From a virus (lineage: Duplodnaviria; Heunggongvirae; Uroviricota; Caudoviricetes): a stretch of 64,000 bases of DNA. Below are positions 4,258 to 38,877 of this stretch, in pieces. Position 1 is the first letter of the stretch; every line of letters starts with the position of its first letter. Under the pieces are notes generated by a model. The model made no database searches. It had not been told where the DNA came from and saw only the letters and a list, made by a program, of their open reading frames with translations. The translations under genes were made by a program, and so were the position numbers. Location of the stretch: IMG/VR virus record IMGVR_UViG_2571042690_000019. The stretch is one strand, 5' to 3'.

Positions 4258-5140
4258 CGGCCTCCACTAGCGAAGTGAACATCGCGGATAATTCAGCAGT
4301 AAACAGGATAAAGTCAGCGTCAAATCGTTGCGCAACATCCTCTCGATCAATATCGTCGTTCTGGTCGTACAATTCGTCGCTGAACGACAAAGCCTTGATA
4401 CTCATATCGTCATTCAGTCTGAAAAATGCACGGTCTTGCCAGTTAACCGCAACTGTGGTTGCAACCTTACCAGCTTCTATATGACTCATGATCTCGTCGG
4501 ATAGCAGGTCCACTTTTTTGCAGCGGACCGCGCCGCCATCATCAAGCAATGCTTTTAAGGTCGCTTCCTCACCGGCACGGAAACCGTTCGGGAAGCCATT
4601 TTTAATCCAGCCAGTGATGGTCAGTTCTAATGGGTCTTTCGGAGAGAAGGGGACAACGGGCAAGCTGCCAAGCGATTTCCGTAACAAAGCCAGCTGATCC
4701 TCTGCTTTTTTAGCACTGCTGGCCTCGACAAAAACCAGATGATTGCTTCGGTCTATCAGGATTTTAGCTACTGATTTTCTCGTGAAAGCGCGAGGAAGAA
4801 GAGAGTGAAGCACTTCATCCTTCAGCGAATCTTTTTCGGTCTTCTTCAGCTTTCTGTCTTGCTCTTCTTCAAGTTTCAGGATTTTTTTCTGTAACTCTTC
4901 TTTGAGTACTTGAGAAGGTAGGATTTTTTCCTCTCGTTTATGCTGCATCAGAAGAAAACCCTGGTATTCATGGGTGAGGTTGTCGCCAAGAACGGGGGTC
5001 CAACCAGCTTTAGCCATATCCTGAGAACCGCATGGGGTAAACACAAACTTGCTAAGGGCTGCATTTACTTCTGCAGTATCCCAGCTAACTTCGCGTGAAA
5101 GACGATAGATGAAGATATTTTTGAAAGCGACTGATCTCAT
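4235..5140 (-). CDS. rdgC: RdgC-like recombination-associated protein (phage homolog)
   Basis: 301 aa, colinear similarity to E. coli RdgC ([60 protein letters not shown]). Confidence 0.88.
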
Positions 5141-5147
5141 GTCTCAC

Positions 5148-5191
5148 CATTTGTGTTAGAAAATACATATTAATTATCTAACACAAATGGG
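5148..5191. promoter_or_regulatory. inverted pair of operator-like motifs (14-bp perfect inverted repeat CCATTTGTGTTAGA / TCTAACACAAATGG, 16-bp spacer) upstream of the rdgC-dmt operon
   Basis: perfect inverted repeat read directly; each arm carries the TCTAACA core of the dispersed motif. Confidence 0.5.
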
Positions 5192-5199
5192 TGCATTTT

Positions 5200-5853
5200 C
5201 TATCCTTTCTTGAAATCGAAGTTGCCAGCAGTGGCCTGAAAGGTTCCCCCAGCCTTGAAAGCTATGTCCCCGTTAGCGGTGACAGCTATATTTTCCCCAT
5301 TAACATTGATGTTGTTGGCTGATTTGACGTTAACACTCCCTCCTGCATTCACGATTACATCAGCCGGACCAATGATATATATCTGCCCGGACTCATTCAT
5401 GCCAATCCTTGAGCCTGCTGCCGTATTGGCAATTTCATAGCCGCCACCAGCAGTTCGTACTTCAAGAATATTGTTGCGGTGAATAACGAAGTCTTTCGTT
5501 GCTGAGATTTGGGGGCGGGGAGGTGCTCCATCTACTTCCGGCGGCGTCCAGCCGTTGCCTTTGCCAGATGCTTCTGGTGCAACGTTTGGAATTCCTCCCG
5601 GTGCATCCTGAGCGGCACCAACTATCATTGGGCGTCTGGTGTCTATTCGACCGTTAACATCTAAATAAGGAAACTCTACCCAGACCAGGTCACCTTTGAC
5701 TGTAGGTACAAAAGCGTTCCCGATGGGTAACTGGTATTCCGCCCAGGGTAGATCGTCATCAGGAACGCCATTCCAGTCAGGTAAAACACGGACTTGAGCA
5801 CGCATAAGCCCTGCCGGGTGCACAGTTCCAACAATTTGCGCTCTACGCTTCAT
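5200..5853 (-). CDS. hypothetical protein, glycine-rich C-terminal repeats
   Basis: 217-aa ORF in an operon of four stop/start-coupled genes; no family recognised. Confidence 0.55.
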   Translation of the reverse strand: MKRRAQIVGTVHPAGLMRAQVRVLPDWNGVPDDDLPWAEYQLPIGNAFVPTVKGDLVWVEFPYLDVNGRIDTRRPMIVGAAQDAPGGIPNVAPEASGKGNGWTPPEVDGAPPRPQISATKDFVIHRNNILEVRTAGGGYEIANTAAGSRIGMNESGQIYIIGPADVIVNAGGSVNVKSANNINVNGENIAVTANGDIAFKAGGTFQATAGNFDFKKG

Positions 5854-6830
5854 TTGTTAGGCACTCCCAATATCATTCGTGTTGTGTAGCCTACGCGGTC
5901 CTCAAAGTGCGCAACATTTTTTACTATCAGCTTACGGGGCATTGATTCATCAATGCGGTTTTCCTGGTCATAGCGGTATACGATAATCTCTATTACCATC
6001 CCCGGTTTTATATCAGGATTGCCTGCGACTTCTATATCCATTTTGGGGACGAGAGACAGCTGCATATTGCGAAGAGTTTCCATATCAGAGTCGGATATAT
6101 AACGTACTGGGAGTGAGCTATCGCCATATTCGACGTAGCCATCGGTCATGGAATACCCAACAAAACGATATTGATTCTTTGCTGTTGTCGCATGTTCCTG
6201 TTGGAGTAGGCGCATTTTGGACAAAGTGTATTCTGCTTTAGGGTTATTCCCCTCGTAGGTAAATGATGGCGTTTGCTTCATCAGATCAGCCAGGGTGTAA
6301 AAGTTAAATTCCCCCCGGCATACCCAACATAATGCACCTTTGTCTCGCGCTATCTCCGAAAGCATTTTTGACGGTTTGTCACCGGCATTCAGATGATATG
6401 TAACTGCGCGTTTTAGCACGCTGCTGGTAATTTTAAGCTTGCCGGAATATGCCTTGAATATAGCGTCTGGTGTTTTGTTGGTATGTAAATTTGTGCGCGG
6501 GGAGGGGATCTTAAACCTGCGCACGTCTTCACTGACAGCAATAACGGTAACAACATCACCAGCCAGCATTGCAGACGTAACAAAGAAATCTGTTTTAAAA
6601 GTGCCTGCATTACCGTTTGGATCGCCCATTTCAGCCACCAGCGATGCACCGTATTTGGCTTTCCAGTCATCAATTACGGTGCCGGTAGCGTCATGAATTT
6701 CCAGTTTTAGCAAAGGGGCTTTGAGGCTGGTTTTTTCTACATATACTGCGGTAAAAATCCAGTCTCGTGGCACTTTGTTATCGTTAATGAGCACTGACTG
6801 TAGAAAATATTGTTGTAACTCCTGGGCCAC
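5850..6830 (-). CDS. hypothetical phage protein
   Basis: 326-aa ORF, start overlaps upstream stop. Confidence 0.55.
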   Translation of the reverse strand: MAQELQQYFLQSVLINDNKVPRDWIFTAVYVEKTSLKAPLLKLEIHDATGTVIDDWKAKYGASLVAEMGDPNGNAGTFKTDFFVTSAMLAGDVVTVIAVSEDVRRFKIPSPRTNLHTNKTPDAIFKAYSGKLKITSSVLKRAVTYHLNAGDKPSKMLSEIARDKGALCWVCRGEFNFYTLADLMKQTPSFTYEGNNPKAEYTLSKMRLLQQEHATTAKNQYRFVGYSMTDGYVEYGDSSLPVRYISDSDMETLRNMQLSLVPKMDIEVAGNPDIKPGMVIEIIVYRYDQENRIDESMPRKLIVKNVAHFEDRVGYTTRMILGVPNK

Positions 6831-6833
6831 TTA

Positions 6834-7601
6834 TCACCCCATAGATATCGAGGTTTCGGTAATAATACGTTTTGCGTCCAACTCCCATGCTGTGATCACG
6901 TCTGCAATCACACTTATCGGCGCTTGTGTGGCATAAATACGCTCTTCTCCAATTGGTGCTGAAACATCCGTAAAGCCGACTTCTTTGGCATCCTGTATCG
7001 AGCAAATCAGCGGGACCGGAACACGAACAAGGTGAGTGGTTGCTTCAAATTGTGTACCTGTCATCAGGCGAAGCCGTGCGCCCAGCGAATTACACATCAG
7101 ACTCATGGTCGCTTTATCAGTTGCCATTAACGTAACGTCATACGTCAGAATGGCCTGGGTGTATTCCAGTTCTGCTAAAGGCATTCCGGTATCCGGTTCG
7201 CAAAAACTGGCTACTTTTTTGCGGTCAATCTGCTGATCATCGTTGATATAATTGATATCCATAGTGCGTGAGATATTGACCAGGGGGAGAGCATCCCGGT
7301 TAATGTTCTGGTTTTCAGGTTTTCTCCCTTGCCCGGCATTTGCGCGACGAACTGCTTTAAGAAACTCGATCGCATTGTCGAAACGGGCCACATAGACACG
7401 CTCTGCTGGTGGACGATTCAAGAATGACGCAAAGCGTTTTTCTTCCGGCGCGGGGGCCACCAGTAAGATATCAGAAAAAATGTTGCTGATTAGCGTCGCA
7501 AACGCGTTATCCACGTTTTCAAAGCCCGTGGTCTGGAATTTTCCTGTGCGTGAGGTTTGCCATTCACCTGTTCGCGCCAGGAGGGTTTTATTTGAAGTCA
7601 T
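6834..7601 (-). CDS. hypothetical phage protein
   Basis: 255-aa ORF in the same operon. Confidence 0.55.
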   Translation of the reverse strand: MTSNKTLLARTGEWQTSRTGKFQTTGFENVDNAFATLISNIFSDILLVAPAPEEKRFASFLNRPPAERVYVARFDNAIEFLKAVRRANAGQGRKPENQNINRDALPLVNISRTMDINYINDDQQIDRKKVASFCEPDTGMPLAELEYTQAILTYDVTLMATDKATMSLMCNSLGARLRLMTGTQFEATTHLVRVPVPLICSIQDAKEVGFTDVSAPIGEERIYATQAPISVIADVITAWELDAKRIITETSISMG

Positions 7602-8401
7602 TCGATCACTCCGTTTTGAGTCGTATCAAAATTCCTGGCTGGTATGCAGTAGTAAAGCGAACCAACATGCTGTGTGCCGTAGCTAAAAATACGGTGCACG
7701 TACCACCAGCGGCGGGCTACGCCGTTTACCATCTCTTCATTCCATTCAAGAATTGAGCCGACGGGGACGTTATTTGCTGCAATACGCAGAATCAGAACAT
7801 CATCGGTTAAGCCATCCTGCTCACCGTCTGCGTCAATCGCATGGAAAGAGTCACGCCCGTCCGGGTTATCCAGCACATAAACGATTTCAGGTTCCTGGTA
7901 AGTCAGTTCGCGTTGGTTGTTATCCAGTTCAGTGAATGACTCTTCTCCTGTTTCGTCGCTGACTACCCCATATGTGCCAACATCTGGTCGATATAAGAGA
8001 GCCTGAAACGCGTCTGGGCTGGATTCAATAATCAGCATCCAGTCTGCGCGGATTTGGTCGTTAAAGGCTTTATGCCCGTTATAGCGTGCTTTTAACTGTG
8101 GAGTCGGTTCTCTGCCAGCCAGGGAAGATGGAAGTATGGCTATATCTGATTCGCCAGCATCCGGAGTAAGGCCACCGTTGCTATCAGCAAAATTATCATG
8201 GCTATCAGCTTTGGCGGCGGGTTGCTCTTCCAGAATGCTGAATGAATCCGAACCGGTATTGCCATGTTCCGGCGCGCCTCCTGCATTCGCTTCAATCGGC
8301 GCTGGCGTTTCTCTCTGCGTGCTGTCATGTTCTGACTCCTTACTTGCCAGGTTTGCATCGTCAGCAAACCATTCGTCAAAACGGCCCATAAGCATCCTCA
8401 A
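7598..8401 (-). CDS. hypothetical acidic phage protein
   Basis: 267-aa ORF, Asp/Glu-rich N-terminal half. Confidence 0.55.
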   Translation of the reverse strand: MRMLMGRFDEWFADDANLASKESEHDSTQRETPAPIEANAGGAPEHGNTGSDSFSILEEQPAAKADSHDNFADSNGGLTPDAGESDIAILPSSLAGREPTPQLKARYNGHKAFNDQIRADWMLIIESSPDAFQALLYRPDVGTYGVVSDETGEESFTELDNNQRELTYQEPEIVYVLDNPDGRDSFHAIDADGEQDGLTDDVLILRIAANNVPVGSILEWNEEMVNGVARRWWYVHRIFSYGTQHVGSLYYCIPARNFDTTQNGVIE

Positions 8402-28347: not shown

Positions 28348-28599
28348 GTGTCAGATCGAAATATAGCAGCTAAAAGCCAGGAAGAGCGAGACAAGGTGAA
28401 CGTAGACCTTGCCGCCAGCGGCGTTGCTTACAAAGAACGGCTGAATATACCTGTGATTGCAGAGCAGGTGGCCCGTGAGCAACCGGAAAACCTGCGCGCC
28501 TATTTCATGGAACGGCTACGGCACTACCGGCAGTTAAGCCTCCAGTTGCCAAAAGGGAGCGATCCGGTGTATCAGAACGAGGATGCACCAAAAAAATAA
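28348..28599 (+). CDS. hypothetical protein
   Basis: 83-aa ORF. Confidence 0.4.
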
Positions 28600-28684
28600 C
28601 GGCAAGATGGGGGAGAAATGTGATTAGCCCCCAGCGTGGCGCGCCTACAAACCCCGCTTTCACAAACTATGCCTTTTCAATGTA

Positions 28685-28704
28685 TACTGTATGAATAAAC
28701 AGTA
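28685..28704. promoter_or_regulatory. LexA (SOS) box upstream of humD
   Basis: TACTGTATGAATAAACAGTA fits CTGT-N8-ACAG consensus, ~20 bp before the humD start. Confidence 0.7.
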
Positions 28705-28722
28705 TCATTGAGGTAAAACGCT

Positions 28723-29112
28723 ATGGGCTTCCCTTCTCCTGCGGCGGATTATGTTGAAAGCCGAATTTCTCTTGATCAGCAGATAATTAGACATCCTTCA
28801 GCGACCTACTTCATGCGGGCAGCTGATAGCCATCACCGTGAGGGAATATTGCAGGGTGCTTTGCTGGTGGTTGATTCCTCGCTTACTCCGGTTGATGGTT
28901 CTCTGCTTGTGTGCGCTATGGAGGGTGAATATCGCATAAAGAGATACAGGAAGTATCCGCGCCAGCACCTGGAGGACTTAAGCACCGGGAAGAAAGAGGC
29001 GTTACCAGTAGATGACGATGGATACACGGGCAGTAATGCTGTTTTTGGTGTGATCACTCATGTCATCAATGATGCCCGAAGTGGGGAATTTGATGATTGT
29101 CCGGTTATTTAA
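28723..29112 (+). CDS. humD: UmuD'-like protein (S24 peptidase fold, N-terminal arm absent)
   Basis: 129 aa beginning GFPSPAADYVE, i.e. at the position following the UmuD Cys-Gly cleavage site; strong similarity to E. coli UmuD core. Confidence 0.8.
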   Translation: MGFPSPAADYVESRISLDQQIIRHPSATYFMRAADSHHREGILQGALLVVDSSLTPVDGSLLVCAMEGEYRIKRYRKYPRQHLEDLSTGKKEALPVDDDGYTGSNAVFGVITHVINDARSGEFDDCPVI

Positions 29113-29184
29113 GCTGCAAAGTGCTGGTGCTTTATGCCTGTGAAGTTTATAATTGTGTACACATAACGAGTACACGAGGTGTTT

Positions 29185-29406
29185 ATGCAATCCATTAACT
29201 TCCGTACCGCGCGTGGCAACCTTTCTGAAGTGCTCAACAATGTTGAAGCCGGGGAAGAGGTTGAAATCACCCGCAGAGGCCGTGAGCCAGCAGTAATTGT
29301 CAGCAAGGCTACTTTTGAAGCCTACAAAAAAGCGGCGCTGGATGCCGAATTTGCATCCCTGTTTGACACCCTGGACTCCACCAACAAGGAACTGGTTAAC
29401 CGATAA
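29185..29406 (+). CDS. phd: antitoxin Phd
   Basis: [49 protein letters not shown] matches P1 Phd as I recall it. Confidence 0.9.
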
Positions 29407-29786
29407 TGAGGCATATATCACCGGAAGAACTTATTGCGCTTCATGATGCGAATATAAGCCGCTACGGCGGCCTGCCGGGAATGTCAGATCCGGGTAGGGC
29501 AGAGGCCATTATCGGGAGAGTTCAGGCCAGAGTTGCCTACGAAGAGATCACCGACCTTTTCGAAGTCTCCGCCACCTACCTGGTGGCTACGGCGAGAGGG
29601 CATATATTCAATGATGCCAATAAGCGTACCGCGCTAAACAGTGCGCTGCTATTTCTACGCCGTAACGGTATACAGGTATATGATTCTCCCGTGCTGGTGG
29701 AACTTGCGGTGGGGGCCGCAACTGGTGAAATCCCCGTATCTTCAGTAGCGGAAAAACTACGTGAATTATTTGGTTCCAATATTTGA
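29406..29786 (+). CDS. doc: toxin Doc (Fic-fold)
   Basis: [39 protein letters not shown]... matches P1 Doc; ATGA overlap with phd. Confidence 0.9.
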
Positions 29787-29788
29787 AA

Positions 29789-29816
29789 AGAAGCCCGCTC
29801 AACCAGGCGGGCTTCC
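29789..29816. terminator. bidirectional terminator hairpin between convergent doc and minus-strand operon
   Basis: AAGCCCGC-N8-GCGGGCTT hairpin. Confidence 0.5.
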
Positions 29817-29821
29817 TACTA

Positions 29822-30916
29822 TCACTCAATGATTTTTTCTGCTGTCAGCCAGCTAATTTCTTGCCTGTCTTTCGGCGGTTTTAGCATGTGGGCGTATTCA
29901 GCGACATTCTCCCACGAAATTGTTTTTGCCCACTCAACGATAGCATTGTGATCTGCAGTGAAGAGTGGAATGGTGTGCGATTTCAACCATTCTAATGTCG
30001 TGACGCCATGTTTTTTGGCGTGGTGCTGCGCATGATGCCGGGCTATCACTCGTAATGGTATTGTCCATTCACTACCATCAGGCATCGAAAAGCGCATTGT
30101 CTTCGGCATATCTGATTCAAGAACAGCCTCCCTAATACCAGGGAACTCACCAAGAATCATACGACGATAGTCATCACTATTTCGCCCGCCATACCTTTCG
30201 GCAAAATGATCAAGATATTCTTGGGTAATAAATGGTGAATCCTCCGCACTCAGCTTAATGGCTTTATATACACCACTCGGATTATCTTCAGCTAAAGCAC
30301 GTCCATGATGTGAATCATAAAAAAAGCCTATTTCCTCTGGTGACGGAATTGAAGTGAGCAATATGCGTGAATCACCACTAGTCATGCTTGCCCACACAAT
30401 GCTGTATGCCTGATCGCTGATATGTGCGGAATCCACAATAATGAATAAAAGATGGTCGGCGTAGTGACCTGCAATGCTATCTTCATAGTTAAGGCGGAAG
30501 TTACAAAAGCACATTCCCCAAAATTCATTGAACATCAGACCGCTATCACCGACCTTAAAATACTCAATGATAAAAGGTTGTTTTTTCAGCAATGCCTCCC
30601 AACATTGCCACACATATGCAACAATTCCTCTTTTGCAAACATTTGATTTTGGATAAACAATTACTGTCCGGGAATCAGGATACATAATCGTATAAAGGGT
30701 ACTAATAACAGCAAGCACTTGCGGTCGTCCGATCCCATACGGAGTGGTGACAGTAGCTTTTGCATTATTGGGCTGTATAGCTTCAACAATTTGTTGTTGC
30801 TGGTGGCTTAAATCAATATCAAACAATTCTTTTGCTGCCAGTACCCAATTGTCTTTATATTTCTCCACCAGCGACAGCCAGCGCGGATCTTTATAAATAT
30901 TGCTCTTAGTCGCCAT
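29822..30916 (-). CDS. terminase large-subunit ATPase-domain paralog with substituted Walker A and Walker B motifs (predicted inactive)
   Basis: aligns with PacB-like ORF 36005..37513 over ~270 aa (DPRW, SHQQQQI, FYDSHH, EYGGR); Walker A GHGTGKS replaced by PYGIGRP, Walker B LDEAS replaced by VDSAH; nuclease domain absent. Confidence 0.7.
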   Translation of the reverse strand: MATKSNIYKDPRWLSLVEKYKDNWVLAAKELFDIDLSHQQQQIVEAIQPNNAKATVTTPYGIGRPQVLAVISTLYTIMYPDSRTVIVYPKSNVCKRGIVAYVWQCWEALLKKQPFIIEYFKVGDSGLMFNEFWGMCFCNFRLNYEDSIAGHYADHLLFIIVDSAHISDQAYSIVWASMTSGDSRILLTSIPSPEEIGFFYDSHHGRALAEDNPSGVYKAIKLSAEDSPFITQEYLDHFAERYGGRNSDDYRRMILGEFPGIREAVLESDMPKTMRFSMPDGSEWTIPLRVIARHHAQHHAKKHGVTTLEWLKSHTIPLFTADHNAIVEWAKTISWENVAEYAHMLKPPKDRQEISWLTAEKIIE

Positions 30917-31673
30917 CTGCCACTTCCTTAACTTCTTCTTTGGCCTGTTCTGCAATCGCCGCACGGCATTTCGCCCTGGCTGTAGCGATTGCTTCAGCTC
31001 GCACATCGTCTGGAATCGTTGACGTGATATACATATCCAGTTCTTCGGCACGGAATACTGTTTGGTCCAGATATTCGCGTAGCATCCAGGTAAATTCGAA
31101 ATCACACGCGATAATCTCTGCGCTACCTTCTGCACCATTTGGGAAATGAATAAATGCCTGTTTAGCCAAACCGATAACACGACATGCGGTTGCCAAAACA
31201 GCGACAACCAGGTTTACATTTTCACACGCTACGGGCTGGTTAACGCCGGAGATTACTCCATTTAACTGTCGGTTATATGGAAGGTAGTTTGAGATGCGTT
31301 CTACGCGCCATGTGCCAGTCAGGCTGCCATTTTTAAATATAATTGGTGTAACGGATAGCCCAAGCTCGCGTATAAGTCGTTGCGCTATAGCAGGATCATT
31401 AAACAGGTCTAATGCTACACATTCGAAAGACTGCGCAAGGGCAAACAGTTCTTCCAGAGAGTAGTCTTTGCCCCTGGCGGTGATGTAACGACGAACGCCG
31501 CTGTCTGCATCACTCCATATAGCTACGCCATGCTCTTCATTCAGCTCTTCATTAAAGCCGAGATACGTCATGATAGTGCGTTCAATCGTGTCAAACGGCA
31601 GTGACATGTCGGCGTTAACAGCCACCAGCAGGCCATTACGCAAGCGGTATTGAATTGTTTTAGTGCTTTCCAT
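30906..31673 (-). CDS. hypothetical protein
   Basis: 255-aa ORF immediately upstream of the terminase paralog. Confidence 0.55.
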   Translation of the reverse strand: MESTKTIQYRLRNGLLVAVNADMSLPFDTIERTIMTYLGFNEELNEEHGVAIWSDADSGVRRYITARGKDYSLEELFALAQSFECVALDLFNDPAIAQRLIRELGLSVTPIIFKNGSLTGTWRVERISNYLPYNRQLNGVISGVNQPVACENVNLVVAVLATACRVIGLAKQAFIHFPNGAEGSAEIIACDFEFTWMLREYLDQTVFRAEELDMYITSTIPDDVRAEAIATARAKCRAAIAEQAKEEVKEVADGD

Positions 31674-31679
31674 GTCAAA

Positions 31680-32120
31680 TCACTCCACAACAAACCAGTC
31701 ACAGGCCAGCAGGTCGCCAACTGAAGGCACCCACGGAACAACTACACCTTGTGCATTTTTTAAGGCGAAATAAGCACCATACGGAACGAGGTCGCCGGGG
31801 AAATATCCCTTAATGGCTTCCATTCGTGCCGGGTACTGTCCTTCAGGAACCAGCCAGCAGAATTGGTTTTCGCCGTTCCACCCGCGTCGAGCAACTTTCT
31901 TGCCTTCCTTCAGCCACATCAGCGCGTCTGAAAAGTCGGCTGCTTCAAGGTCGATTTCTTCTTGCTGGGTGGTGATGCCACCAGCAGAAATAGTTACGCT
32001 CCCGGTAAGATTAATCATCACGCCGTTGTCATCCGTAATGATGACCGTGGTTCCATTTTTTTTGTGAGCTTTGTATTTGGGACGGAACTTAAAAAGCTCT
32101 TTCGTTGCCATGTTATTCAT
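31680..32120 (-). CDS. DUF2829-like phage protein
   Basis: ALMWLKEGKKVARRGWNG segment; paralogous to C-terminal half of ORF 39767..40342. Confidence 0.5.
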   Translation of the reverse strand: MNNMATKELFKFRPKYKAHKKNGTTVIITDDNGVMINLTGSVTISAGGITTQQEEIDLEAADFSDALMWLKEGKKVARRGWNGENQFCWLVPEGQYPARMEAIKGYFPGDLVPYGAYFALKNAQGVVVPWVPSVGDLLACDWFVVE

Positions 32121-32134
32121 AGTCTTTTCTCTGC

Positions 32135-32629
32135 TTATAACTTTTCGTACTGAAGCGGTGAACGCTTAATTTCAAAGTGGCCTTCCGATGTGCTACCAAA
32201 GCCACCAGCACCACGCTCCGTTTCGTTGAGTTCCTCAACCTCGACTAGTGAGACTTGTTCAACACGCTCAAAAATTCCTTGCATGACAGCCATTCCAGGC
32301 TTGAGACAAACGCCTTCCCCGCCTGGATCAGTAATCAGTTTTGCCATGATTTCGCCGCGATAATCGGAGTCGATAATTCCTACGCAGTTAGCCAGGCGAG
32401 TATGTTTTTTGCAGCCCAATCCTGATCGCGGATAGAGTTTCAGACACCAGCCGGGCGGGATCTCCATAGCCAGTCCGGTATACACCCACCAGCTTGAGGA
32501 AATTGCACCATTGCTATCGACGCATGGTTTTATTTCAACAGCCTCAAAATCCATCGCCGCCGATCCGGAGGTGGCATAAGCTGGAAGTTTTGCTGCCGGA
32601 TGTAGGCGTTTCACTTTTACGTAAATCAT
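32135..32629 (-). CDS. dut: dUTP diphosphatase (trimeric dUTPase)
   Basis: GIIDSDYRGEI and RGAGGFGSTS motifs. Confidence 0.85.
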   Translation of the reverse strand: MIYVKVKRLHPAAKLPAYATSGSAAMDFEAVEIKPCVDSNGAISSSWWVYTGLAMEIPPGWCLKLYPRSGLGCKKHTRLANCVGIIDSDYRGEIMAKLITDPGGEGVCLKPGMAVMQGIFERVEQVSLVEVEELNETERGAGGFGSTSEGHFEIKRSPLQYEKL

Positions 32630-33102
32630 TGTTTTTTAGCTCTCTGCGTGAAGGTGTAAACCCGACGTTTGATATGTGGAACGGTAGGAACAGGAAGACA
32701 GGAACTTTCAATAACTCCTTGCTCCTCCAGCGATCGCACCGCCCGCAAGAACTGCGACGTGTCGCCGCCAAACTGGCGGGCATAGGTGCTGCCGTTATGA
32801 AGTATTTGAGCTATTACCCGAGCTTTTGTCTGGCTGTCACGATATGCGAATAGCCGCACGGCCTCTTCTGGCGCAATCGCTAACTGATAGCCTTTCCCGG
32901 CACGGTGTCGAATGAATCCATGCGCCAGTAGGTTTTTGAGTTCGTTACGAGTGCGAACAGATCCGTAACCCAGGAAGTGTGGATTGATAACGACTGGCTT
33001 AAACCATTCCGTAGGTGCTTTAGCTAATAGAGCTAACAGCTTCCCGGATAATTCTGGATAGGAAGACGGGTAACAATTCAGAGATGGGTAATAAGTTTTC
33101 AC
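32626..33102 (-). CDS. hypothetical protein, possible winged-helix regulator
   Basis: 158-aa ORF. Confidence 0.45.
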   Translation of the reverse strand: MKTYYPSLNCYPSSYPELSGKLLALLAKAPTEWFKPVVINPHFLGYGSVRTRNELKNLLAHGFIRHRAGKGYQLAIAPEEAVRLFAYRDSQTKARVIAQILHNGSTYARQFGGDTSQFLRAVRSLEEQGVIESSCLPVPTVPHIKRRVYTFTQRAKKQ

Positions 33103-33443
33103 CGACGCCCCCTTGCAGGATATCGACCGGCATTAGTATCCGGTGCAATAAAGCCGGTAGTGGGGCGAGTGAAAGCGAGATTAATCTTCTCGACCATAGT
33201 GCGATAATTTTCCTGATAGTGGGCCAGGAGTTTTTCGGCGGCAATGATGGTTACTTTCCGGACGTAGCTTTCTGCTTCCTCCAGATTTCGCCAGTTTTTT
33301 TCGAGGGTAAACACAGGGACGGCCTCAAGCCCGGTCATGATGCCGAACACAACGACAGCATGACTGTTCTTAACACCAGCGGCGAAGGTTACGGTGTAAC
33401 CATCCACCTTGAAGCGTCTTGATTCCGTGATTTGACTCTGCAA
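33099..33443 (-). CDS. hypothetical protein
   Basis: 114-aa ORF, first gene downstream of the recombinase. Confidence 0.45.
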   Translation of the reverse strand: MQSQITESRRFKVDGYTVTFAAGVKNSHAVVVFGIMTGLEAVPVFTLEKNWRNLEEAESYVRKVTIIAAEKLLAHYQENYRTMVEKINLAFTRPTTGFIAPDTNAGRYPARGRR

Positions 33444-33516: not shown

Positions 33517-34545
33517 TTACGAATCCATCAGGCGGCTATTAGCCCCCACAGACACGCCGCCACGGCGAAGATACCGCATAAGTGTTTCCGGTTTCTTCCA
33601 GGTTCCTTCCTGCATGATCTCCACCATAGACACCTGCTTTTCAGCCATATCAATAGCGGCCCCGACGCGTGCACTATGCCCAGTCCACGTCCGGTATCTT
33701 CCTTTGTTTGGCGTAGCATCTCTTTTATTCAGCAACACCCAGGCGTCGCTGAATATTTTCTCCATTGCAGGTGCAGTAAGGGGCGTTGTCGTAATCCTGG
33801 CCTTATTGCTACGGTGTATCGGCGGGAACAGCACCGCGTCAGGATGTTCACGAAGCCCGGAAACATCCAGCCAGTCATTCAGCACAGCAGTAGTGCGACG
33901 GGAAAGCACCTTATCAAGCCCGGCGGCGGTCGTTATTGTCTTCGTGTGTGAAATATGTAGCGTGACAGTGTCACCTGTTTGGTCCAGATCTCCTACACGA
34001 ATACGCGAGATTTCCGACATACGCATCAGCGTATTGTATGCAACAAAGAGAAAAGCCCGGTTGCGCTGGTCCACCAGCCGTTCTGACCTGGACAGCAGGA
34101 CGTCGAGCAGTTTCAGGTCGTCCCACCGCAACGGTATAGCCTGGCCTGTTCGCTCGCCTTTTTCCGTTGCCGCTTCACGCCGGATGCGCCGCATGGCCAG
34201 AGACACACTTTTATCGTCCGACAGCGGCGGGAGGCCACATTGCGAAAGCAGCATGTTAAGCATGGCATAGTGCTTATCAATGGTGGTCGAAGCCAGATCA
34301 GCATCATGCAGCTGAAGAAAATACTCGCGGGCCATCTCTGGTGAGATCGGGAACCAGGCGAGCTGGCGAGCGTGACACCATCTCGCCCAGGAGTGAAACA
34401 CTAACCGGAGATCGCGCAAAGTATTCGGCGCGTAAGCCCCCTGGTCATTCATGAACCGCATAAAGTTTTCTGCGGCCTCCTGGTACTCTTTGCCAATGTT
34501 GCGCAGAAAACCACCGGAGCTGCCAGAGATAATTAATTTACTCAT
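33517..34545 (-). CDS. dre: Cre-family tyrosine site-specific recombinase (Dre-like)
   Basis: 342 aa colinear with Cre; catalytic-region match GHSARVGAA...GTW...RYLRR (His, Arg, Trp, Tyr positions conserved); adjacent site matches the D6 rox sequence as I recall it. Confidence 0.8.
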   Translation of the reverse strand: MSKLIISGSSGGFLRNIGKEYQEAAENFMRFMNDQGAYAPNTLRDLRLVFHSWARWCHARQLAWFPISPEMAREYFLQLHDADLASTTIDKHYAMLNMLLSQCGLPPLSDDKSVSLAMRRIRREAATEKGERTGQAIPLRWDDLKLLDVLLSRSERLVDQRNRAFLFVAYNTLMRMSEISRIRVGDLDQTGDTVTLHISHTKTITTAAGLDKVLSRRTTAVLNDWLDVSGLREHPDAVLFPPIHRSNKARITTTPLTAPAMEKIFSDAWVLLNKRDATPNKGRYRTWTGHSARVGAAIDMAEKQVSMVEIMQEGTWKKPETLMRYLRRGGVSVGANSRLMDS

Positions 34546-34697
34546 GAAACTATTTAACCTCTATATACAGATGACGCTACGCGAAAAATATAAAAATGAC
34601 AGGGTAGCTATAAGTTAATTTTCAAGATTCAAGCCTTTGATCCGAGGCACGTATTTTCAGTGATGTCAACACTGATCATCTACCCATGATTATAGCC

Positions 34698-34729
34698 TAA
34701 CTTTAAATAATGCCAATTATTTAAAGTTA
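34698..34729. promoter_or_regulatory. lox-like recombination site (rox-type): TAACTTTAAATAAT-GCCA-ATTATTTAAAGTTA
   Basis: perfect 14-bp inverted repeat with asymmetric 4-bp centre; outer TAACTT...AAGTTA shared with loxP; ~150 bp upstream of the recombinase start. Confidence 0.75.
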
Positions 34730-35986: not shown

Positions 35987-36010
35987 GCCCCGCATCGCGG
36001 GGCTTTATAT
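35987..36010. terminator. bidirectional terminator between convergent genes
   Basis: GCCCCGC-ATC-GCGGGGC hairpin followed by TTTATAT. Confidence 0.6.
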
Positions 36011-37513
36011 ATCCAGATCCGGCATTTCGATATCCGCCAGAACCTGATCTCGGAAAGTTGCCATTTCGGCACCAATATCTTCATTAGCAGGCACATAGTC
36101 CACCAGCATAGTGAAGCAGTAGGTATCCCATCGGTCAGGCGATTTGATGTTTAGCTTTTGCCGCATGTGCTCTTTGCGCATCATCGCCATTTTCCCTTCT
36201 TCATTCAGTAAAAAGGGGATTTTTGACGCTTGCTCTGCCGTTTTAGGGTCACTGTCTATCCGCATACGCCCTGACTTTATGGCATCACGCGCCATAATGT
36301 TTGCGTAGGCACGCTGATTAACAAATCGCTCCCTGTCTTTGTTCGCAAACATGGGTTTTCCCCACCGAATACGTACCGGGTTCGCACCACGACGCACCAA
36401 CTGCGCACACGTATCAGAACCAAAACCATCAGCATCAACCGCGATTGTTATATTCGGGTATTTTTCCGGCGTACATTCGTTATATATGAAGTCAGCAAAG
36501 GCCAATGGGTCCATAGTGCCAGGCATCTCCATTACCTTAAAGTTAACAACGCGCCGCTTATCCCTGTGACCTGATACCTTGCAGATGTTGAGGACCGACT
36601 TATCTCGCCCATTACCAACGTCAGCCGTTGCCACCCATCCCCAGTTTTTCTCCAACAACACCTTGCGGCGAGCAGAGCGATCGCATTCATCACGACCAAG
36701 CAAATAGCCGTTAATTTCTCGTGGGAACTGACCAAGCACCTTGACCATGTACTCAATAGAATCGCGCCCACCATATTCCAGAAGCTTCTCCTTGATGAAT
36801 TGTGGTGTGACGAACGGTGATTCTTCCGAGTTAAGAACAATTGCTGTCCAGATCCCTTTCGGGTTGTCTGGGGTTTTTGCTCGAGAATGGTGCGAATCGT
36901 AGAAATAACCACTTGGCCTTGTTGGCTGGGATAGCATCAACATCCGGTTATCTTCTTCAGTAAGAGCACCGGTCATTACGCCGATCGCCTTATCAGATAT
37001 ACCAGATGCTTCATCCAGAATTAGAAGCAAATGTGCCGCGTGTTCCCCCGCCAGCGCTTCTTCGTTGCCGAGTCGATAACCTTTGCAGAGAACTTCCCAA
37101 ATCCCCTTACGGGAGCGCTCATAAAACATGGTGTCAGAGAGGACAAAATAGGTCTGCAACCACCCATGACGCTTAACTGCATTCGCCCAATACTGTTTAA
37201 CGTATTTGAATACGCCTGTTTTTACCTGGCCTATCTTGTTAGCAACAATGATGACACGGGCATCGGGGAACAGGATCATAAAAATCAACAGCAACATCGC
37301 GGTAAGGGACGACTTCCCCGTTCCGTGTCCGGACGTGACGGTCGTCCTACTCCCCGTTTCCTGCACTGACTGAATGATCTGCTGCTGCTGGTGGGAGGGG
37401 AACATCCCAAAAATATCGACTACAGCCTGGGTAAAGTTGTAGCGGTATTTGATTACCATATCGCGCCAGCGTGGATCGCTGGTGACGCATTTAATCTTGC
37501 GCCCGCCAGCCAT
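36005..37513 (-). CDS. pacB: terminase large subunit (PacB-like)
   Basis: Walker A SGHGTGKS, Walker B LLILDEAS, C-terminal nuclease-like DADGFGSD; start overlaps upstream stop. Confidence 0.75.
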   Translation of the reverse strand: MAGGRKIKCVTSDPRWRDMVIKYRYNFTQAVVDIFGMFPSHQQQQIIQSVQETGSRTTVTSGHGTGKSSLTAMLLLIFMILFPDARVIIVANKIGQVKTGVFKYVKQYWANAVKRHGWLQTYFVLSDTMFYERSRKGIWEVLCKGYRLGNEEALAGEHAAHLLLILDEASGISDKAIGVMTGALTEEDNRMLMLSQPTRPSGYFYDSHHSRAKTPDNPKGIWTAIVLNSEESPFVTPQFIKEKLLEYGGRDSIEYMVKVLGQFPREINGYLLGRDECDRSARRKVLLEKNWGWVATADVGNGRDKSVLNICKVSGHRDKRRVVNFKVMEMPGTMDPLAFADFIYNECTPEKYPNITIAVDADGFGSDTCAQLVRRGANPVRIRWGKPMFANKDRERFVNQRAYANIMARDAIKSGRMRIDSDPKTAEQASKIPFLLNEEGKMAMMRKEHMRQKLNIKSPDRWDTYCFTMLVDYVPANEDIGAEMATFRDQVLADIEMPDLDI

Positions 37514-38877
37514 TAATCATCCTCCGGCGGTTCTATCGCGATATCATCATCTCCGGCGTCATACCCTGCATCAGATGCATCATAATCACCGTAAATTTCA
37601 GCCGTTGCCGAAGGGTCAATATCCAGCTCTTCGTCGTTGGCCTCGAATTCTCCAGCTTTACGCTCGCCATTGCGGTCGTAATCTCCGCACCCCAATTCTT
37701 CAACAATGGTTGCCACATCCGCCCGGCGCTCTGCCAGCCATTGCGGATGGTTAGCCTGAAGCGTTGCAAACTCCCTTGCCTCTTTGTCCAGCTGTTCATC
37801 ATCAACATCATTGACGTCAGAAACAGGTGGTTCGAGAAGAGTGATAGCTTTCGCCGCGCGCGCCGCGAGGATAGCCGGGACGCTGACACCCTGGCGCTCG
37901 ATGTATTCAGCAACACCGATATCATCCAGTTCCTCGCGCTCACGCATACGTATAGCGGCGGCGATAACTCTGGCTGCGCGTGCGTCAGCGCCAATGCGAT
38001 ATTCAATCTCTTTGCCACGCTGTTCGGCCTGTAGGCGTGCTAATTCGAGTTTTTCTCTGGCCTCAGCCTCTTTGAATGCTTGCTGGCGAGCGCTCTGACG
38101 AAGCTTTTCATCCCCCTGTCGCAGCTTTTGTTCGGACTGATATATAGCTGCCAACCTACTGATAAAATCATTCATGTAGTAGGCCGCGTCACTGATTAGA
38201 CCGAGAAGGCGCTGCCCAGGGTGCATTCCTTCTGGCTCTTTATCGCCCAAGGCGTCTATTTCCGCCTGTAGACGTTCGGCCTCCTGATCAACAATGCTTT
38301 GATACTGAAGTGCGCGCTCTTGCGCCATTTGAATTGCTAACCGCAGGTGTTCTTCTGCGCCGTTCTTCATCATATCGCGAGCCACATTCGTAGTTGGCAA
38401 TGTGGCACGCTGCACAGCACCGTCAGGGATCATTGCAGAAGATCCCTCAATTTTTGGGGCGTTTTTATCTTCTTCGGGGATCATTTTCGCCATTTTTTCG
38501 CGCAATGATCTCCTGACAGATTCTTTTATCTCATTGTTATTATTTGAATTATTTTCATGATCCGAAGTTTTCTTTCTCGGCATACTTCGGAAAGAACCTG
38601 CGCCCTGCGAATTGTCAATTTCTGTAAATTTTGTTTTTTCTGCACCCTCTTCCAGCTTTTTTGTTGCTCTTCCCGCCCGTTTTTTTTCAGGTGATTTGGT
38701 GCTTTTTTTTGTTGTCTTTACCTGCGACCGCACCTCATTTTTTTTCATATTGAGATGCTTTCTGGCTGTATTGAAGCTAAGGCCATGCTCCTCACAGTAT
38801 TCCTTTACAGTGATCCCTTTTTCTTCACGCAACGCTATAAAGCGGGCGCGGTGCTCCTCCCAATTAACCAGACTCAT
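37513..38877 (-). CDS. pacA: terminase small subunit-like protein (PacA-like), acidic C-terminus
   Basis: 454 aa directly upstream of and coupled to large terminase; N-terminal HTH-like segment; synteny pacA-pacB-c1-lox-recombinase. Confidence 0.5.
   Translation of the reverse strand: MSLVNWEEHRARFIALREEKGITVKEYCEEHGLSFNTARKHLNMKKNEVRSQVKTTKKSTKSPEKKRAGRATKKLEEGAEKTKFTEIDNSQGAGSFRSMPRKKTSDHENNSNNNNEIKESVRRSLREKMAKMIPEEDKNAPKIEGSSAMIPDGAVQRATLPTTNVARDMMKNGAEEHLRLAIQMAQERALQYQSIVDQEAERLQAEIDALGDKEPEGMHPGQRLLGLISDAAYYMNDFISRLAAIYQSEQKLRQGDEKLRQSARQQAFKEAEAREKLELARLQAEQRGKEIEYRIGADARAARVIAAAIRMREREELDDIGVAEYIERQGVSVPAILAARAAKAITLLEPPVSDVNDVDDEQLDKEAREFATLQANHPQWLAERRADVATIVEELGCGDYDRNGERKAGEFEANDEELDIDPSATAEIYGDYDASDAGYDAGDDDIAIEPPEDD

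What the first reader, a model, noticed from the sequence alone, without database searches (positions are those of the whole stretch)
29822..33443. Operon led by a catalytically degenerate terminase large-subunit paralog, with dUTPase and DUF2829-like genes, downstream of the recombinase
ORF 29822..30916 aligns with the ATPase domain of the PacB-like terminase encoded 6 kb away, but Walker A (GHGTGKS to PYGIGRP) and Walker B (LDEAS to VDSAH) are substituted and the nuclease domain is replaced by a His-rich tail. It is coupled with five genes including a dUTPase. In P1 the locus just downstream of cre carries accessory/defence functions (res-mod), so this may be an alternative cargo module, e.g. 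a packaging decoy or interference factor.
Basis: partly seen in the sequence, partly recalled or inferred. Interest (0 to 1): 0.7.

Follow-up and report, generated by a model that had tools for sequence, protein, structure and literature searches.

The report
Dead terminase paralog in accessory cassette
A D6/P1-type phage-plasmid carries an intact, conserved copy of its DNA-packaging motor's ATPase domain that has lost the catalytic residues and the nuclease. It is fused to a small, widespread phage domain of unknown function and travels with an immune-signal sponge-like gene, so it is probably a conflict (counter-defence or interference) factor rather than a packaging enzyme.

Summary
ORF 29822..30916 (minus strand, 364 aa) is a paralog of the window's own PacB terminase (36005..37513): 37% identity over 258 aa, E 7e-57. 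Walker A is GHGTGKS in PacB and PYGIGRP here; Walker B is LDEAS in PacB and VDSAH here; there is no nuclease domain.

- The gene is the last of the six-gene minus-strand operon, not the first.
- The "His-rich tail" is a confidently folded ~100-aa domain (pLDDT 89). It has 242 mostly stand-alone relatives and no named family.

New findings:
- All seven paralog alleles examined lack the catalytic residues.
- The gene always follows isaA, overlapping it by 8-14 nt. With a Tad2-like (DUF2829) gene it forms a cassette found in both D6-type and P1-type backbones.
- It is absent from reference D6 and P1.
- Only the pseudo-ATPase domain is swapped between otherwise near-identical plasmids (52% aa identity, dS 1.5, against 97-99% and dS 0.03-0.15 in flanking genes). 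It does not covary with the element's own PacB.
- dN/dS is 0.27-0.37, so the protein is functional but under looser constraint than PacB.

Function is untested. My best guess (about 0.35) is a non-catalytic terminase mimic used in counter-defence, for example against terminase sensors. The main rival is packaging interference or regulation. I class it as an uncharacterised new variant of the accessory terminase-like phage proteins.

The parts
29822..30916 (-). PacB-paralog gene, 364 aa, the last gene of the operon. It has two domains: a pseudo-ATPase and a small C-terminal domain.
   Evidence: BLASTP against the window's PacB gives E 7e-57. It hits phrog_5902 at 3e-164. It is 99% identical to P0001, a cluster of 392 member sequences. 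The start is ATG 30916, preceded by an AAGGAAG ribosome-binding site, and lies inside the 3' end of isaA.
30146..30916 (-). Pseudo-ATPase domain (aa 1-257), homologous to the PacB/TerL ATPase domain. This is the hypervariable, cassette-like part.
   Evidence: Alignments are; the Foldseek hits to TerL ATPase domains are. Against L012 it is 52% aa identical with dS 1.47, while flanking genes are 97-99% identical. In PLSDB the identity classes are >=95% or <60%, with nothing between.
30722..30742 (-). Degenerate Walker A remnant, PYGIGRP (PacB has GHGTGKS).
   Evidence: At the lysine position the seven paralogs carry R, Q, Q, H, E, C or T.
30422..30436 (-). Degenerate Walker B remnant, VDSAH (PacB has LDEAS).
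   Evidence: At the Walker B aspartate position the paralogs carry V, T, A, M, I or P.
29825..30145 (-). C-terminal ~100-aa domain (aa 258-364), in the position where PacB has its nuclease domain.
30906..31673 (-). isaA homolog, 255 aa, overlapping the paralog's start by 11 nt. Its acidic C-terminal tail lies inside the swapped segment.
   Evidence: It is 48% identical to P1 IsaA, E 3e-89, and hits phrog_2326. It precedes every two-domain paralog inspected. The divergence breakpoint lies near 31000.
31680..32120 (-). Tad2-like (DUF2829) protein, 146 aa.
   Evidence: Pfam PF11195 Tad2-like, E 5.9e-23, 81.6 bits against a cut-off of 25. It is 86% identical over its C-terminal 126 aa to the DUF2829 gene of the P1-type plasmid pRM10386-1.
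32135..32629 (-). dUTPase, 164 aa.
   Evidence: PF00692, E 1.7e-14. NCBIfam NF001862, 121.5 bits against a cut-off of 103.
32626..33102 (-). Conserved 158-aa protein of unknown function (D6 orf116 type).
   Evidence: phrog_6669, E 2e-97. It is present directly after the c8-like gene in all D6-like relatives seen.
33099..33443 (-). First gene of the operon, 114 aa, a homolog of P1 c8.
   Evidence: The window protein and P1 C8 both hit phrog_1968, at 4e-48 and 6e-53. The position directly downstream of cre/dre is syntenic. Pairwise BLASTP is only weak, E 0.06. The start is a TTG preceded by AGGAGGG.
29793..29808 (.). G+C-rich hairpin between the convergent doc and paralog genes. It is the likely terminator of the operon.
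36005..37513 (-). PacB, 502 aa, the catalytic terminase large subunit and parent of the paralog (context).
   Evidence: phrog_5902 and phrog_2, with intact GHGTGKS and LDEAS motifs. It is adjacent to PacA at 37513..38877.
33517..34545 (-). Dre (Cre-like) tyrosine recombinase, upstream of the operon (context).
   Evidence: PF00589. It is about 97% identical in DNA to D6 dre.

Best explanation
Shown:
- The gene encodes a stable, selected, non-catalytic paralog of the PacB terminase ATPase domain. It is a pseudo-ATPase with no P-loop lysine, no Walker B aspartate and no nuclease domain.
- It is fused to a small, widespread phage domain.
- It is translationally coupled to isaA and linked to a Tad2-like gene.
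- It is an optional accessory cassette of P1/D6-family phage-plasmids.

Inferred mechanism:
- The protein acts as a molecular mimic of the terminase ATPase domain in a host-phage conflict.
- The variable pseudo-ATPase domain occupies proteins that recognise terminase. The most likely targets are host terminase sensors of the Avs1-3 or Upx type.
- Because it cannot bind or hydrolyse ATP normally, and carries the C-terminal domain and perhaps IsaA, it does not give a productive signal. It therefore blunts detection of the real PacB.
- It would be made early, not with the late packaging genes.
For: - The paralog has the terminase ATPase fold but lacks the catalytic residues in all seven alleles and architectures examined. 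The residues at those positions are not conserved.
- The protein is under purifying selection. The N-domain has dN/dS 0.27-0.37 and the C-domain 0.11-0.17, so it is not a decaying pseudogene. The N-domain value is about 5-10 times that of PacB, which is 0.02-0.08.
- Only the pseudo-ATPase domain and the last ~30 codons of isaA are replaced between plasmids. Their PacB, dre, dut, isaA, paralog C-domain and phd/doc are 97-100% identical.
- Alleles fall into discrete classes of >=95% or <60% identity. This is the pattern expected of a specificity module facing an external, variable partner.
- The element's own PacB does not covary with the paralog allele.
- The gene is linked to a Tad2-like (DUF2829) gene in two different backbones, D6-type and P1-type. 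DUF2829 proteins are experimentally shown sponges of immune signals (bioRxiv 10.1101/2023.05.01.538930; PMC12393519), and that work notes that anti-defence genes cluster.
- Relatives place a DNA methyltransferase in the same operon.
- It is dispensable. It is absent from reference D6 and P1, and P1 isaA is non-essential by CRISPRi (PMC10695390).
- In the P1-type context, a C1 operator lies upstream of ssb. No terminator-like site occurs on that strand until just after the paralog, which suggests early, repressor-controlled expression.
- There is precedent. T4 vs.8 and Ksap2 are accessory terminase-ATPase-like phage proteins that engage Avs2. The authors suggest they may be anti-defence proteins, and EcAvs2 recognition uses the terminase-bound ATP (PMC13601566).
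Against: - There are no functional data of any kind.
- The known terminase-like accessory proteins (vs.8, Ksap1/2) trigger Avs2 rather than block it, so a mimic might be a liability.
- The divergent allele has saturated dS, so it reflects recombination between old lineages, not demonstrable positive selection. dN/dS is below 1 throughout.
- Linkage to the Tad2-like gene is guilt by association, and that gene's own activity is untested.
- Expression timing in the D6-type operon is unknown. No C1 operator or late-promoter box was found.
- The roles of IsaA and the C-terminal domain are unknown.
- There are no hits in PADLOC or in any anti-defence-annotated family.
Confidence: 0.35

Rival explanations
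1. Packaging regulator or interference factor. The dead PacB domain competes with active PacB for PacA, the pac site complex or the portal. This could keep leaky pacase from cutting the plasmid prophage or delay packaging early in lytic growth. Alternatively it could poison the terminase of superinfecting P1/D6-type phages (exclusion).
For: - It is the closest relative of the element's own PacB, at 33-37% identity to all PacB types.
- It retains PacB-family signature segments outside the catalytic motifs: the N-terminal DPRW..KY..HQQ region and the FYDSHH..NP.G..AI.L..E.SP region.
- Early, repressor-controlled expression in the P1-type context would suit a timing brake.
- A Citrobacter variant sits immediately upstream of mat, annotated as maturation control protein.
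Against: - Paralog alleles differ by about 50% between plasmids whose PacB is 97-99% identical, so it is not co-adapted to its own terminase.
- No allele is notably closer to any PacB type.
- Reference P1 and D6 package normally without it.
- It is not linked to pacAB but to isaA and a Tad2-like gene.
Confidence: 0.25
2. Prophage-encoded defence module. The terminase-like domain serves as a bait (integrated decoy) that detects a protein of an invading phage or satellite which targets terminases. IsaA or the C-terminal domain would be the output.
For: - The cassette-like hypervariable recognition domain next to a constant domain resembles sensor and effector organisation.
- It is carried by a temperate element in a cargo hotspot where P1 itself has res-mod.
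Against: - There are no PADLOC hits for any of the six proteins.
- Neither IsaA nor the C-domain shows any enzymatic or toxic-effector signature.
- The neighbouring genes are of counter-defence type (Tad2-like, methyltransferase), not defence type.
- In the P1-type context it appears to be a C1-repressed lytic gene, so it would be off in the lysogen.
Confidence: 0.12
3. Neofunctionalised scaffold unrelated to packaging or immunity, for example a DNA- or protein-binding accessory factor in replication or recombination that keeps only the fold.
For: - It neighbours ssb in P1-type elements and ref in the Citrobacter and Klebsiella variants.
- The C-domain is also fused to DUF1351 proteins.
Against: - The hypervariability of just this domain is hard to explain by a housekeeping role.
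- The association with ref and ssb may only reflect shared cargo hotspots.
Confidence: 0.15
4. Decaying remnant of a duplicated pacB with no function.
For: It has lost the catalytic motifs and the nuclease domain. It is absent from the reference phages.
Against: - The ORF is intact in every copy seen, with a conserved length of 364-366 aa.
- dN/dS is 0.11-0.37.
- The same architecture is kept at 47-51% identity across P1-type and D6-type elements.
- Translational coupling to isaA is conserved.
- It is present in about 180 PLSDB plasmids and 36 complete E. coli genomes.
Confidence: 0.03

Closest known systems
PacB, terminase large subunit of P1/D6 (the TerL family)
   Same: The N-terminal ASCE ATPase fold is homologous: 37% identity over 258 aa to the window's PacB. 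The paralog shares phrog_5902 and phrog_2 and keeps PacB-specific segments such as HQQQQI and FYDSHH.
   Different: It has no P-loop lysine, no Walker B aspartate and no nuclease domain. It is not next to pacA, is dispensable, and evolves about 5-10 times faster at non-synonymous sites. It carries an unrelated ~100-aa C-terminal domain.
T4 vs.8, and more distantly Ksap2: accessory terminase-ATPase-like phage proteins that activate Avs2 (PMC13601566; PMC11564622)
   Same: These are non-essential, lineage-restricted phage proteins consisting of a terminase-ATPase-like domain without a nuclease. Their function is unknown, and the authors of that work suggest they may be anti-defence proteins.
   Different: The origin is independent: there is no sequence similarity to vs.8. 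vs.8 keeps its Walker A and B motifs, whereas this family has lost them in every member. This family also has an extra C-terminal domain, a coupled partner gene (isaA) and cassette-like allelic replacement.
Tad2 / DUF2829 immune-signal sponges (for the neighbouring gene 31680..32120)
   Same: The Pfam PF11195 domain scores well above its cut-off. The gene is phage-encoded and lies in a variable accessory region.
   Different: It has an N-terminal extension of variable length: 146 aa here against 212-233 aa in relatives. Ligand binding is untested, and SPO1 Tad2 is only 89 aa (bioRxiv 10.1101/2023.05.01.538930).
Viral pseudosubstrate mimics such as poxvirus K3L, an eIF2-alpha mimic (from general knowledge, an analogy only)
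   Same: A catalytically or functionally inert copy of a protein that an immune sensor recognises, which diversifies fast.
   Different: There is no evidence here of binding to any sensor. The system and the kingdom are different.

Membership tests
Terminase large subunit (TerL/PacB) | N-terminal ASCE ATPase domain homologous to TerL | tested here: met
   BLASTP E 7e-57 against the window's PacB. phrog_5902 at 3e-164 and phrog_2 at 5e-9. The top Foldseek hits are TerL ATPase domains.
Terminase large subunit (TerL/PacB) | Walker A P-loop GxxxxGK[ST] | tested here: not met
   PYGIGRP at 30722..30742, against GHGTGKS in PacB. The lysine is replaced in all seven paralogs.
Terminase large subunit (TerL/PacB) | Walker B hhhhDE | tested here: not met
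   IIVDSAH, against LILDEAS in PacB. The aspartate position carries V, T, A, M, I or P.
Terminase large subunit (TerL/PacB) | C-terminal RNase H-like nuclease domain | tested here: not met
   Nothing aligns to PacB residues 265-502. The C-terminal 107 aa belong to an unrelated small-domain family.
Terminase large subunit (TerL/PacB) | Encoded next to the small subunit and required for packaging | tested here: not met
   It follows isaA, 5 kb from pacAB. It is absent from the viable phages D6 and P1.
Accessory terminase-ATPase-like proteins (T4 vs.8 type) | Sequence homology to vs.8 | tested here: not met
   BLASTP gives no significant alignment. The PHROGs differ: phrog_1488 for vs.8 against phrog_5902 here.
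Accessory terminase-ATPase-like proteins (T4 vs.8 type) | Stand-alone terminase-ATPase-like domain, non-essential and lineage-restricted | tested here: met
Accessory terminase-ATPase-like proteins (T4 vs.8 type) | Binds or activates Avs2 | not testable with these tools
   This needs co-expression toxicity or pull-down assays.
Tad2 / DUF2829 sponge (gene 31680..32120) | DUF2829 (PF11195) domain above the gathering threshold | tested here: met
   E 5.9e-23, 81.6 bits against a cut-off of 25, covering the full profile 2-73/73.
Tad2 / DUF2829 sponge (gene 31680..32120) | Sequesters gcADPR, His-ADPR or cyclic nucleotides | not testable with these tools
   This is a biochemical property. Specificity varies between homologs (PMC12393519).
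dUTPase (gene 32135..32629) | Trimeric dUTPase family profile above the curated cut-off | tested here: met
   NF001862, 121.5 bits against 103; TIGR00576, 119.2 against 102.55.
P1 IsaA (gene 30906..31673) | Full-length homology to P1 IsaA | tested here: met
   48% identity over 258 aa, E 3e-89; phrog_2326.
P1 IsaB | Homology of the paralog to P1 IsaB, the gene downstream of isaA-IS1 in P1 | tested here: not met
   BLASTP E values of 2.3 and 0.084.
P1 C8 (gene 33099..33443) | Same protein family and same position directly downstream of cre | tested here: met
   Both proteins hit phrog_1968, at 4e-48 and 6e-53. The position is syntenic. Pairwise BLASTP is weak, E 0.06.
Known anti-phage defence systems (PADLOC-DB 2.0) | Match to any defence-system protein model | tested here: not met
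   No families matched any of the six operon proteins.

The most novel reading that the evidence does not exclude
The IsaA-paralog pair would be the first terminase-mimic counter-defence. A catalytically dead copy of the packaging ATPase binds terminase-sensing immune receptors (Avs1-3, Upx or an unknown sensor) as a non-activating pseudoligand. Its swappable pseudo-ATPase cassette would track sensor diversity. This would also explain why unrelated phages keep accessory terminase-like proteins such as T4 vs.8 and Ksap2.
Probability: 0.25. Interest if true: 0.85.

Novelty: new variant of a known kind. Interest (0 to 1): 0.6.

Why it matters
The terminase large subunit is one of the main proteins by which bacterial immune receptors (Avs1-3, Upx) recognise phages. 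Several phages carry unexplained terminase-ATPase-like accessory proteins, and their purpose is an acknowledged open question (PMC13601566).

This family offers a clean natural experiment on that question:
- a long-maintained, catalytically dead terminase domain;
- discrete swappable alleles;
- a fixed partner gene and a fixed C-terminal domain;
- physical linkage to an immune-signal sponge family;
- a genetically tractable E. coli phage-plasmid as host element.

If it is a mimic that blunts terminase sensing, or one that poisons rival terminases, it would define a new mode of action. It would also give a function to isaA and to a ~100-aa domain found in hundreds of phage protein clusters.

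If it turns out to be only a packaging modulator, it still corrects misannotation as "terminase large subunit" in public records.

Tried and rejected
- **P1 IsaB as an IS1-disrupted remnant of the paralog:** rejected, no similarity.
- **IsaA as a degenerate PacA, making the pair a duplicated pacAB:** rejected. BLASTP and hhalign show nothing.
- **Family assignment for the paralog, IsaA, orf116 and the C-domain:** nothing in Pfam, NCBIfam or PADLOC beyond a sub-threshold DUF5076 hit.
- **PDB sequence search with family profiles:** no hits for the paralog, only noise for IsaA and the C-domain.
- **Full-length AF2 model:** poor, with only 6 sequences (pLDDT 58). I used it only for the ATPase-fold check.
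- **Regulation of the D6-type operon:** no P1 C1 operator and no P1 late -22 box near the operon. A candidate repeat downstream of dre is not enriched. The only strong promoter match lies upstream of dre, overlapping rox.
- **Relatives of the domain-swapped Klebsiella protein P0017:** none found in genome contigs or the protein database.
- **Literature:** searches found no paper describing this paralog.

Full report
**Setting**

The window is a D6-like member of the P1 family of phage-plasmids. The region 29400..34600 matches Escherichia phage D6 at 96.9% identity over 77% of its length. The recombinase at 33517..34545 (minus strand) corresponds to D6 dre. PacA and PacB lie at 37513..38877 and 36005..37513. 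phd/doc lie at 29179..29786.

In reference D6, doc is followed by a short pdcA-like ORF and then isaA.

**Checking the observation**

The flagged ORF is on the minus strand, 30916 down to 29822, and encodes 364 aa.
- The ATG at 30916 has an AAGGAAG ribosome-binding site and lies 11 nt inside the end of the upstream gene. PGAP annotations and the 392-member protein cluster P0001 use the same start.
- BLASTP against the window's own PacB gives 37% identity over 258 aa, E 7e-57. The alignment has no gap across the Walker motifs.
- Both proteins hit phrog_5902 and, more weakly, phrog_2 (terminase large subunit).
- A low-confidence AF2 model (pLDDT 58) still finds terminase large-subunit (TerL) ATPase domains as its best PDB neighbours: P74-26, T4 gp17, D6E and Sf6.
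- PacB has GHGTGKS and LILDEAS. The paralog has PYGIGRP (30722..30742) and IIVDSAH (30422..30436).
- Nothing in the paralog aligns to the nuclease half of PacB.

**Operon structure**

Six co-directional minus-strand genes run from 33443 to 29822:
1. a 114-aa protein;
2. a 158-aa protein (4-nt overlap with the previous gene);
3. dUTPase (4-nt overlap);
4. a DUF2829 protein (14-nt gap);
5. an isaA homolog (6-nt gap);
6. the paralog (11-nt overlap).

A G+C-rich hairpin at 29793..29808, shared with the convergent doc gene, follows the last gene. The paralog is therefore the last gene of the operon, not its leader.

The first gene belongs to the same PHROG as P1 c8. Like c8, it lies directly after the recombinase.

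The DUF2829 protein matches Pfam PF11195, now named "Thoeris anti-defense 2-like", at E 5.9e-23. Members of this family are experimentally shown sponges of immune signalling nucleotides (bioRxiv 10.1101/2023.05.01.538930; PMC12393519).

The fifth gene is 48% identical to P1 IsaA, a gene of unknown function that CRISPRi shows to be non-essential (PMC10695390).

I found no P1-type C1 operator or late-promoter box near the operon. Its timing of expression is therefore unknown.

**The paralog is a family, and all members are catalytically dead**

Related proteins occur in three architectures.
- **N-domain plus C-domain after isaA.** This is seen in D6-type plasmids (alleles P0004, P0005, P0006 and L020, at 63-65% overall identity). 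It is also seen in P1-type elements between ssb and hxr (MH422554.1 and pRM10386-1, 50-51% identity).
- **N-domain alone.** A 263-aa protein in a Citrobacter P1-like plasmid overlaps ref and lies upstream of mat.
- **Reversed order.** A Klebsiella michiganensis protein has the small domain in front of the pseudo-ATPase. It is truncated by a Tn3-family transposase.

In the joint alignment, the P-loop lysine position reads R, Q, Q, H, E, C, T. The first glycine is proline in six of the seven. The Walker B aspartate position reads V, T, A, M, I, P. The catalytic residues are thus lost throughout, and their replacements are unconstrained.

PacB-specific segments outside the active site are kept: the region around HQQ upstream of the P-loop, and FYDSHH..NP.G..AI.L..E.SP.

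P1 IsaB, which follows isaA-IS1 in reference P1, is unrelated. The paralog is therefore not a known P1 gene, and the second refutation condition is not met either.

**The C-terminus is a real domain**

An exhaustive profile-free search with residues 258-364 found 242 cluster representatives at E<=1e-3. Most are stand-alone proteins of about 100 aa. The consensus is MPDGSxWxVPVxxIAxHRAxxYA...TLPLFxxDxxEIxDWAxNNMxWxDV.

The His-rich stretch is peculiar to the P1/D6 versions. With 116 sequences, AF2 gives pLDDT 89: a beta-hairpin packed on helices.
- BFVD returns only uncharacterised phage proteins.
- It has no Pfam family.
- Occasional fusion partners are DUF1351 coiled-coil proteins, a Lar-like zinc ribbon and the N4 gp49/Sf6 gp66 family.

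Fusion to a PacB-like pseudo-ATPase in both orders argues that the two domains work together.

**Evolutionary pattern**

Comparing the window with another D6-like plasmid (L012) gives these values:

| Region | aa identity | dS |
|---|---|---|
| PacB | 99% | 0.03 |
| dre | 98% | 0.15 |
| dut | 98% | 0.09 |
| isaA | 98% | 0.08 |
| paralog C-domain | 97% | 0.11 |
| paralog N-domain | 52% | 1.47 (dN 0.40) |

phd/doc are 96-100% identical in DNA in 100-nt windows.

The breakpoints fall about 85 nt before the paralog start, inside the acidic tail of IsaA, and at the domain junction near 30144. This is replacement by an old, divergent allele rather than recent rapid change.

N-domain alleles in PLSDB are either >=95% or <60% identical to the window's, with nothing between.

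Between closer alleles (L012 against L015), the N-domain has dN/dS 0.36 at dS 0.15, while PacB has 0.03 at dS 0.43. The protein is under purifying selection, but about ten-fold less tightly than the real terminase. Its allele is also uncoupled from the element's own PacB.

The neighbouring Tad2-like and isaA genes are mosaic as well. Against pRM10386-1, the Tad2-like protein is 86% identical, IsaA 48% and the paralog 50%. Against L020, the figures are 60%, 98% and 63%.

**Prevalence**

- About 180 of 788 PLSDB plasmids with a PacB-like gene carry a second, paralogous copy (788 records, 970 places).
- 36 of 5426 complete E. coli genomes carry this particular isaA-paralog allele, always on plasmids.

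**Interpretation**

What is shown:
- It is an intact, selected, non-catalytic terminase-ATPase paralog with an added domain.
- It is translationally coupled to isaA and travels with a Tad2-like gene in two different backbones.
- It is optional for the phage.
- Its pseudo-ATPase domain is a swappable, fast-evolving cassette that does not track the element's own terminase.

In the P1-type context, a C1 operator with one mismatch lies upstream of ssb. There is no terminator-like site on that strand until just after the paralog. This suggests an early, repressor-controlled unit.

These features fit a role in conflict with the host or with other elements better than a role in the element's own packaging.

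The recent literature gives a concrete candidate target. Avs1-3 and Upx sense the terminase ATPase domain. EcAvs2 contacts the terminase-bound ATP through a bridging ATP. T4 vs.8 and Ksap2 are accessory terminase-like proteins of unknown purpose that engage Avs2 and are suggested to be anti-defence proteins (PMC13601566; PMC11564622). The anti-Avs proteins covered in the EVADES preprint I read (ORF55, ORF83) are not terminase mimics (bioRxiv 10.1101/2025.06.06.658234).

I therefore rank a non-activating terminase mimic (counter-defence) first, at about 0.35.
- Packaging interference or regulation comes second, at 0.25. It is weakened by the lack of covariation with PacB.
- A neofunctionalised scaffold is at 0.15.
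- A prophage defence bait is at 0.12. It is weakened by the absence of any effector signature and by the counter-defence character of the neighbours.
- Simple decay is essentially excluded, at 0.03.

All of these mechanistic steps are inference. No tool here can test binding.

**Comparison with known families and novelty**

The protein fails four of the five defining features of a terminase large subunit, so it should not be annotated as one, as MH422554.1 does. It works like, but is not homologous to, T4 vs.8.

I class it as a new variant of a known kind, the accessory terminase-like phage proteins. It differs in its loss of catalytic motifs across the family, an extra widespread domain, a fixed partner gene and cassette-like allelic exchange. 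I found no publication describing it.

Noticed in passing
window 33099..33443 (-): The first gene of the operon (114 aa) is in the same PHROG (phrog_1968) as P1 C8 ('establishment of lysogeny, putative'). It occupies the same position directly after the recombinase. D6 annotates it only as a hypothetical protein (orf117).
   Followed up: partly
L021 (NZ_CP028125.1 pRM10386-1) 2030..4583; window 29822..32120: The Tad2-like gene, isaA and the PacB paralog form a three-gene cassette in two different backbones: P1-type between ssb and hxr, and D6-type between dre and doc. Each gene recombines independently. Against pRM10386-1 the identities are 86%, 48% and 50%; against the D6-type plasmid L020 they are 60%, 98% and 63%.
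   Followed up: partly
L018 (NZ_CP114569.1, Citrobacter freundii) 4974..5765: A 263-aa stand-alone PacB-like pseudo-ATPase (TTPSGIGCKH; FFICPNAN) lacks the C-terminal domain. It overlaps the ref nuclease gene by 4 nt and lies just upstream of mat.
   Followed up: partly
L005 (Klebsiella michiganensis GCA_024867085.4) 6001..8384: Protein P0017 has the small domain N-terminal to a PacB-like pseudo-ATPase (GSGTGTTT), the reverse of the order in the window. The gene is cut by a Tn3-family transposase ORF. A Ref-family (RecA_dep_nuc) gene lies about 0.6 kb away.
   Followed up: partly
window 32003..32118 (5' part of the Tad2-like gene): The N-terminal extension of the DUF2829 protein is an indel hotspot. 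The protein is 146 aa here and in D6 but 212-233 aa in related plasmids. Alignment to relatives breaks exactly there.
   Followed up: no
window about 34689..34728 (-): An inverted repeat, TAACTTTAAATAATTGGCATTATTTAAAGTTA, is presumably the rox site. It overlaps the best sigma-70 match in the region (TTGGCA-16-TATAAT, 11/12) upstream of dre. Recombinase binding could therefore affect transcription, as described for lox/cre in P1.
   Followed up: no
L010/L011 (Enterobacter hormaechei D6-like elements) 3711..6004: In these relatives the dUTPase slot holds an N6/N4 DNA methyltransferase, and a 169-aa HNH-like protein sits between the Tad2-like gene and isaA. In a Raoultella element (L009), isaA is followed by an ars operon. 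The locus is a cargo hotspot.
   Followed up: partly
L002 (MH422554.1) 6995..8089: The P1-type paralog is annotated 'terminase large subunit' in this GenBank record although it lacks the Walker A/B catalytic residues and the nuclease domain. This is a misannotation that could propagate.
   Followed up: yes
L002 5486..5502 and 8095..8118: A P1 C1 operator with one mismatch lies upstream of ssb, and a strong hairpin terminator lies right after the paralog. This suggests that ssb-isaA-paralog is one repressor-controlled early unit in P1-type elements.
   Followed up: partly
window 28348..29112 (+): Homologs of the P1 hot (DNA polymerase III theta) and humD (UmuD'-like) genes lie just upstream of phd/doc. 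The order matches that annotated in D6.
   Followed up: no
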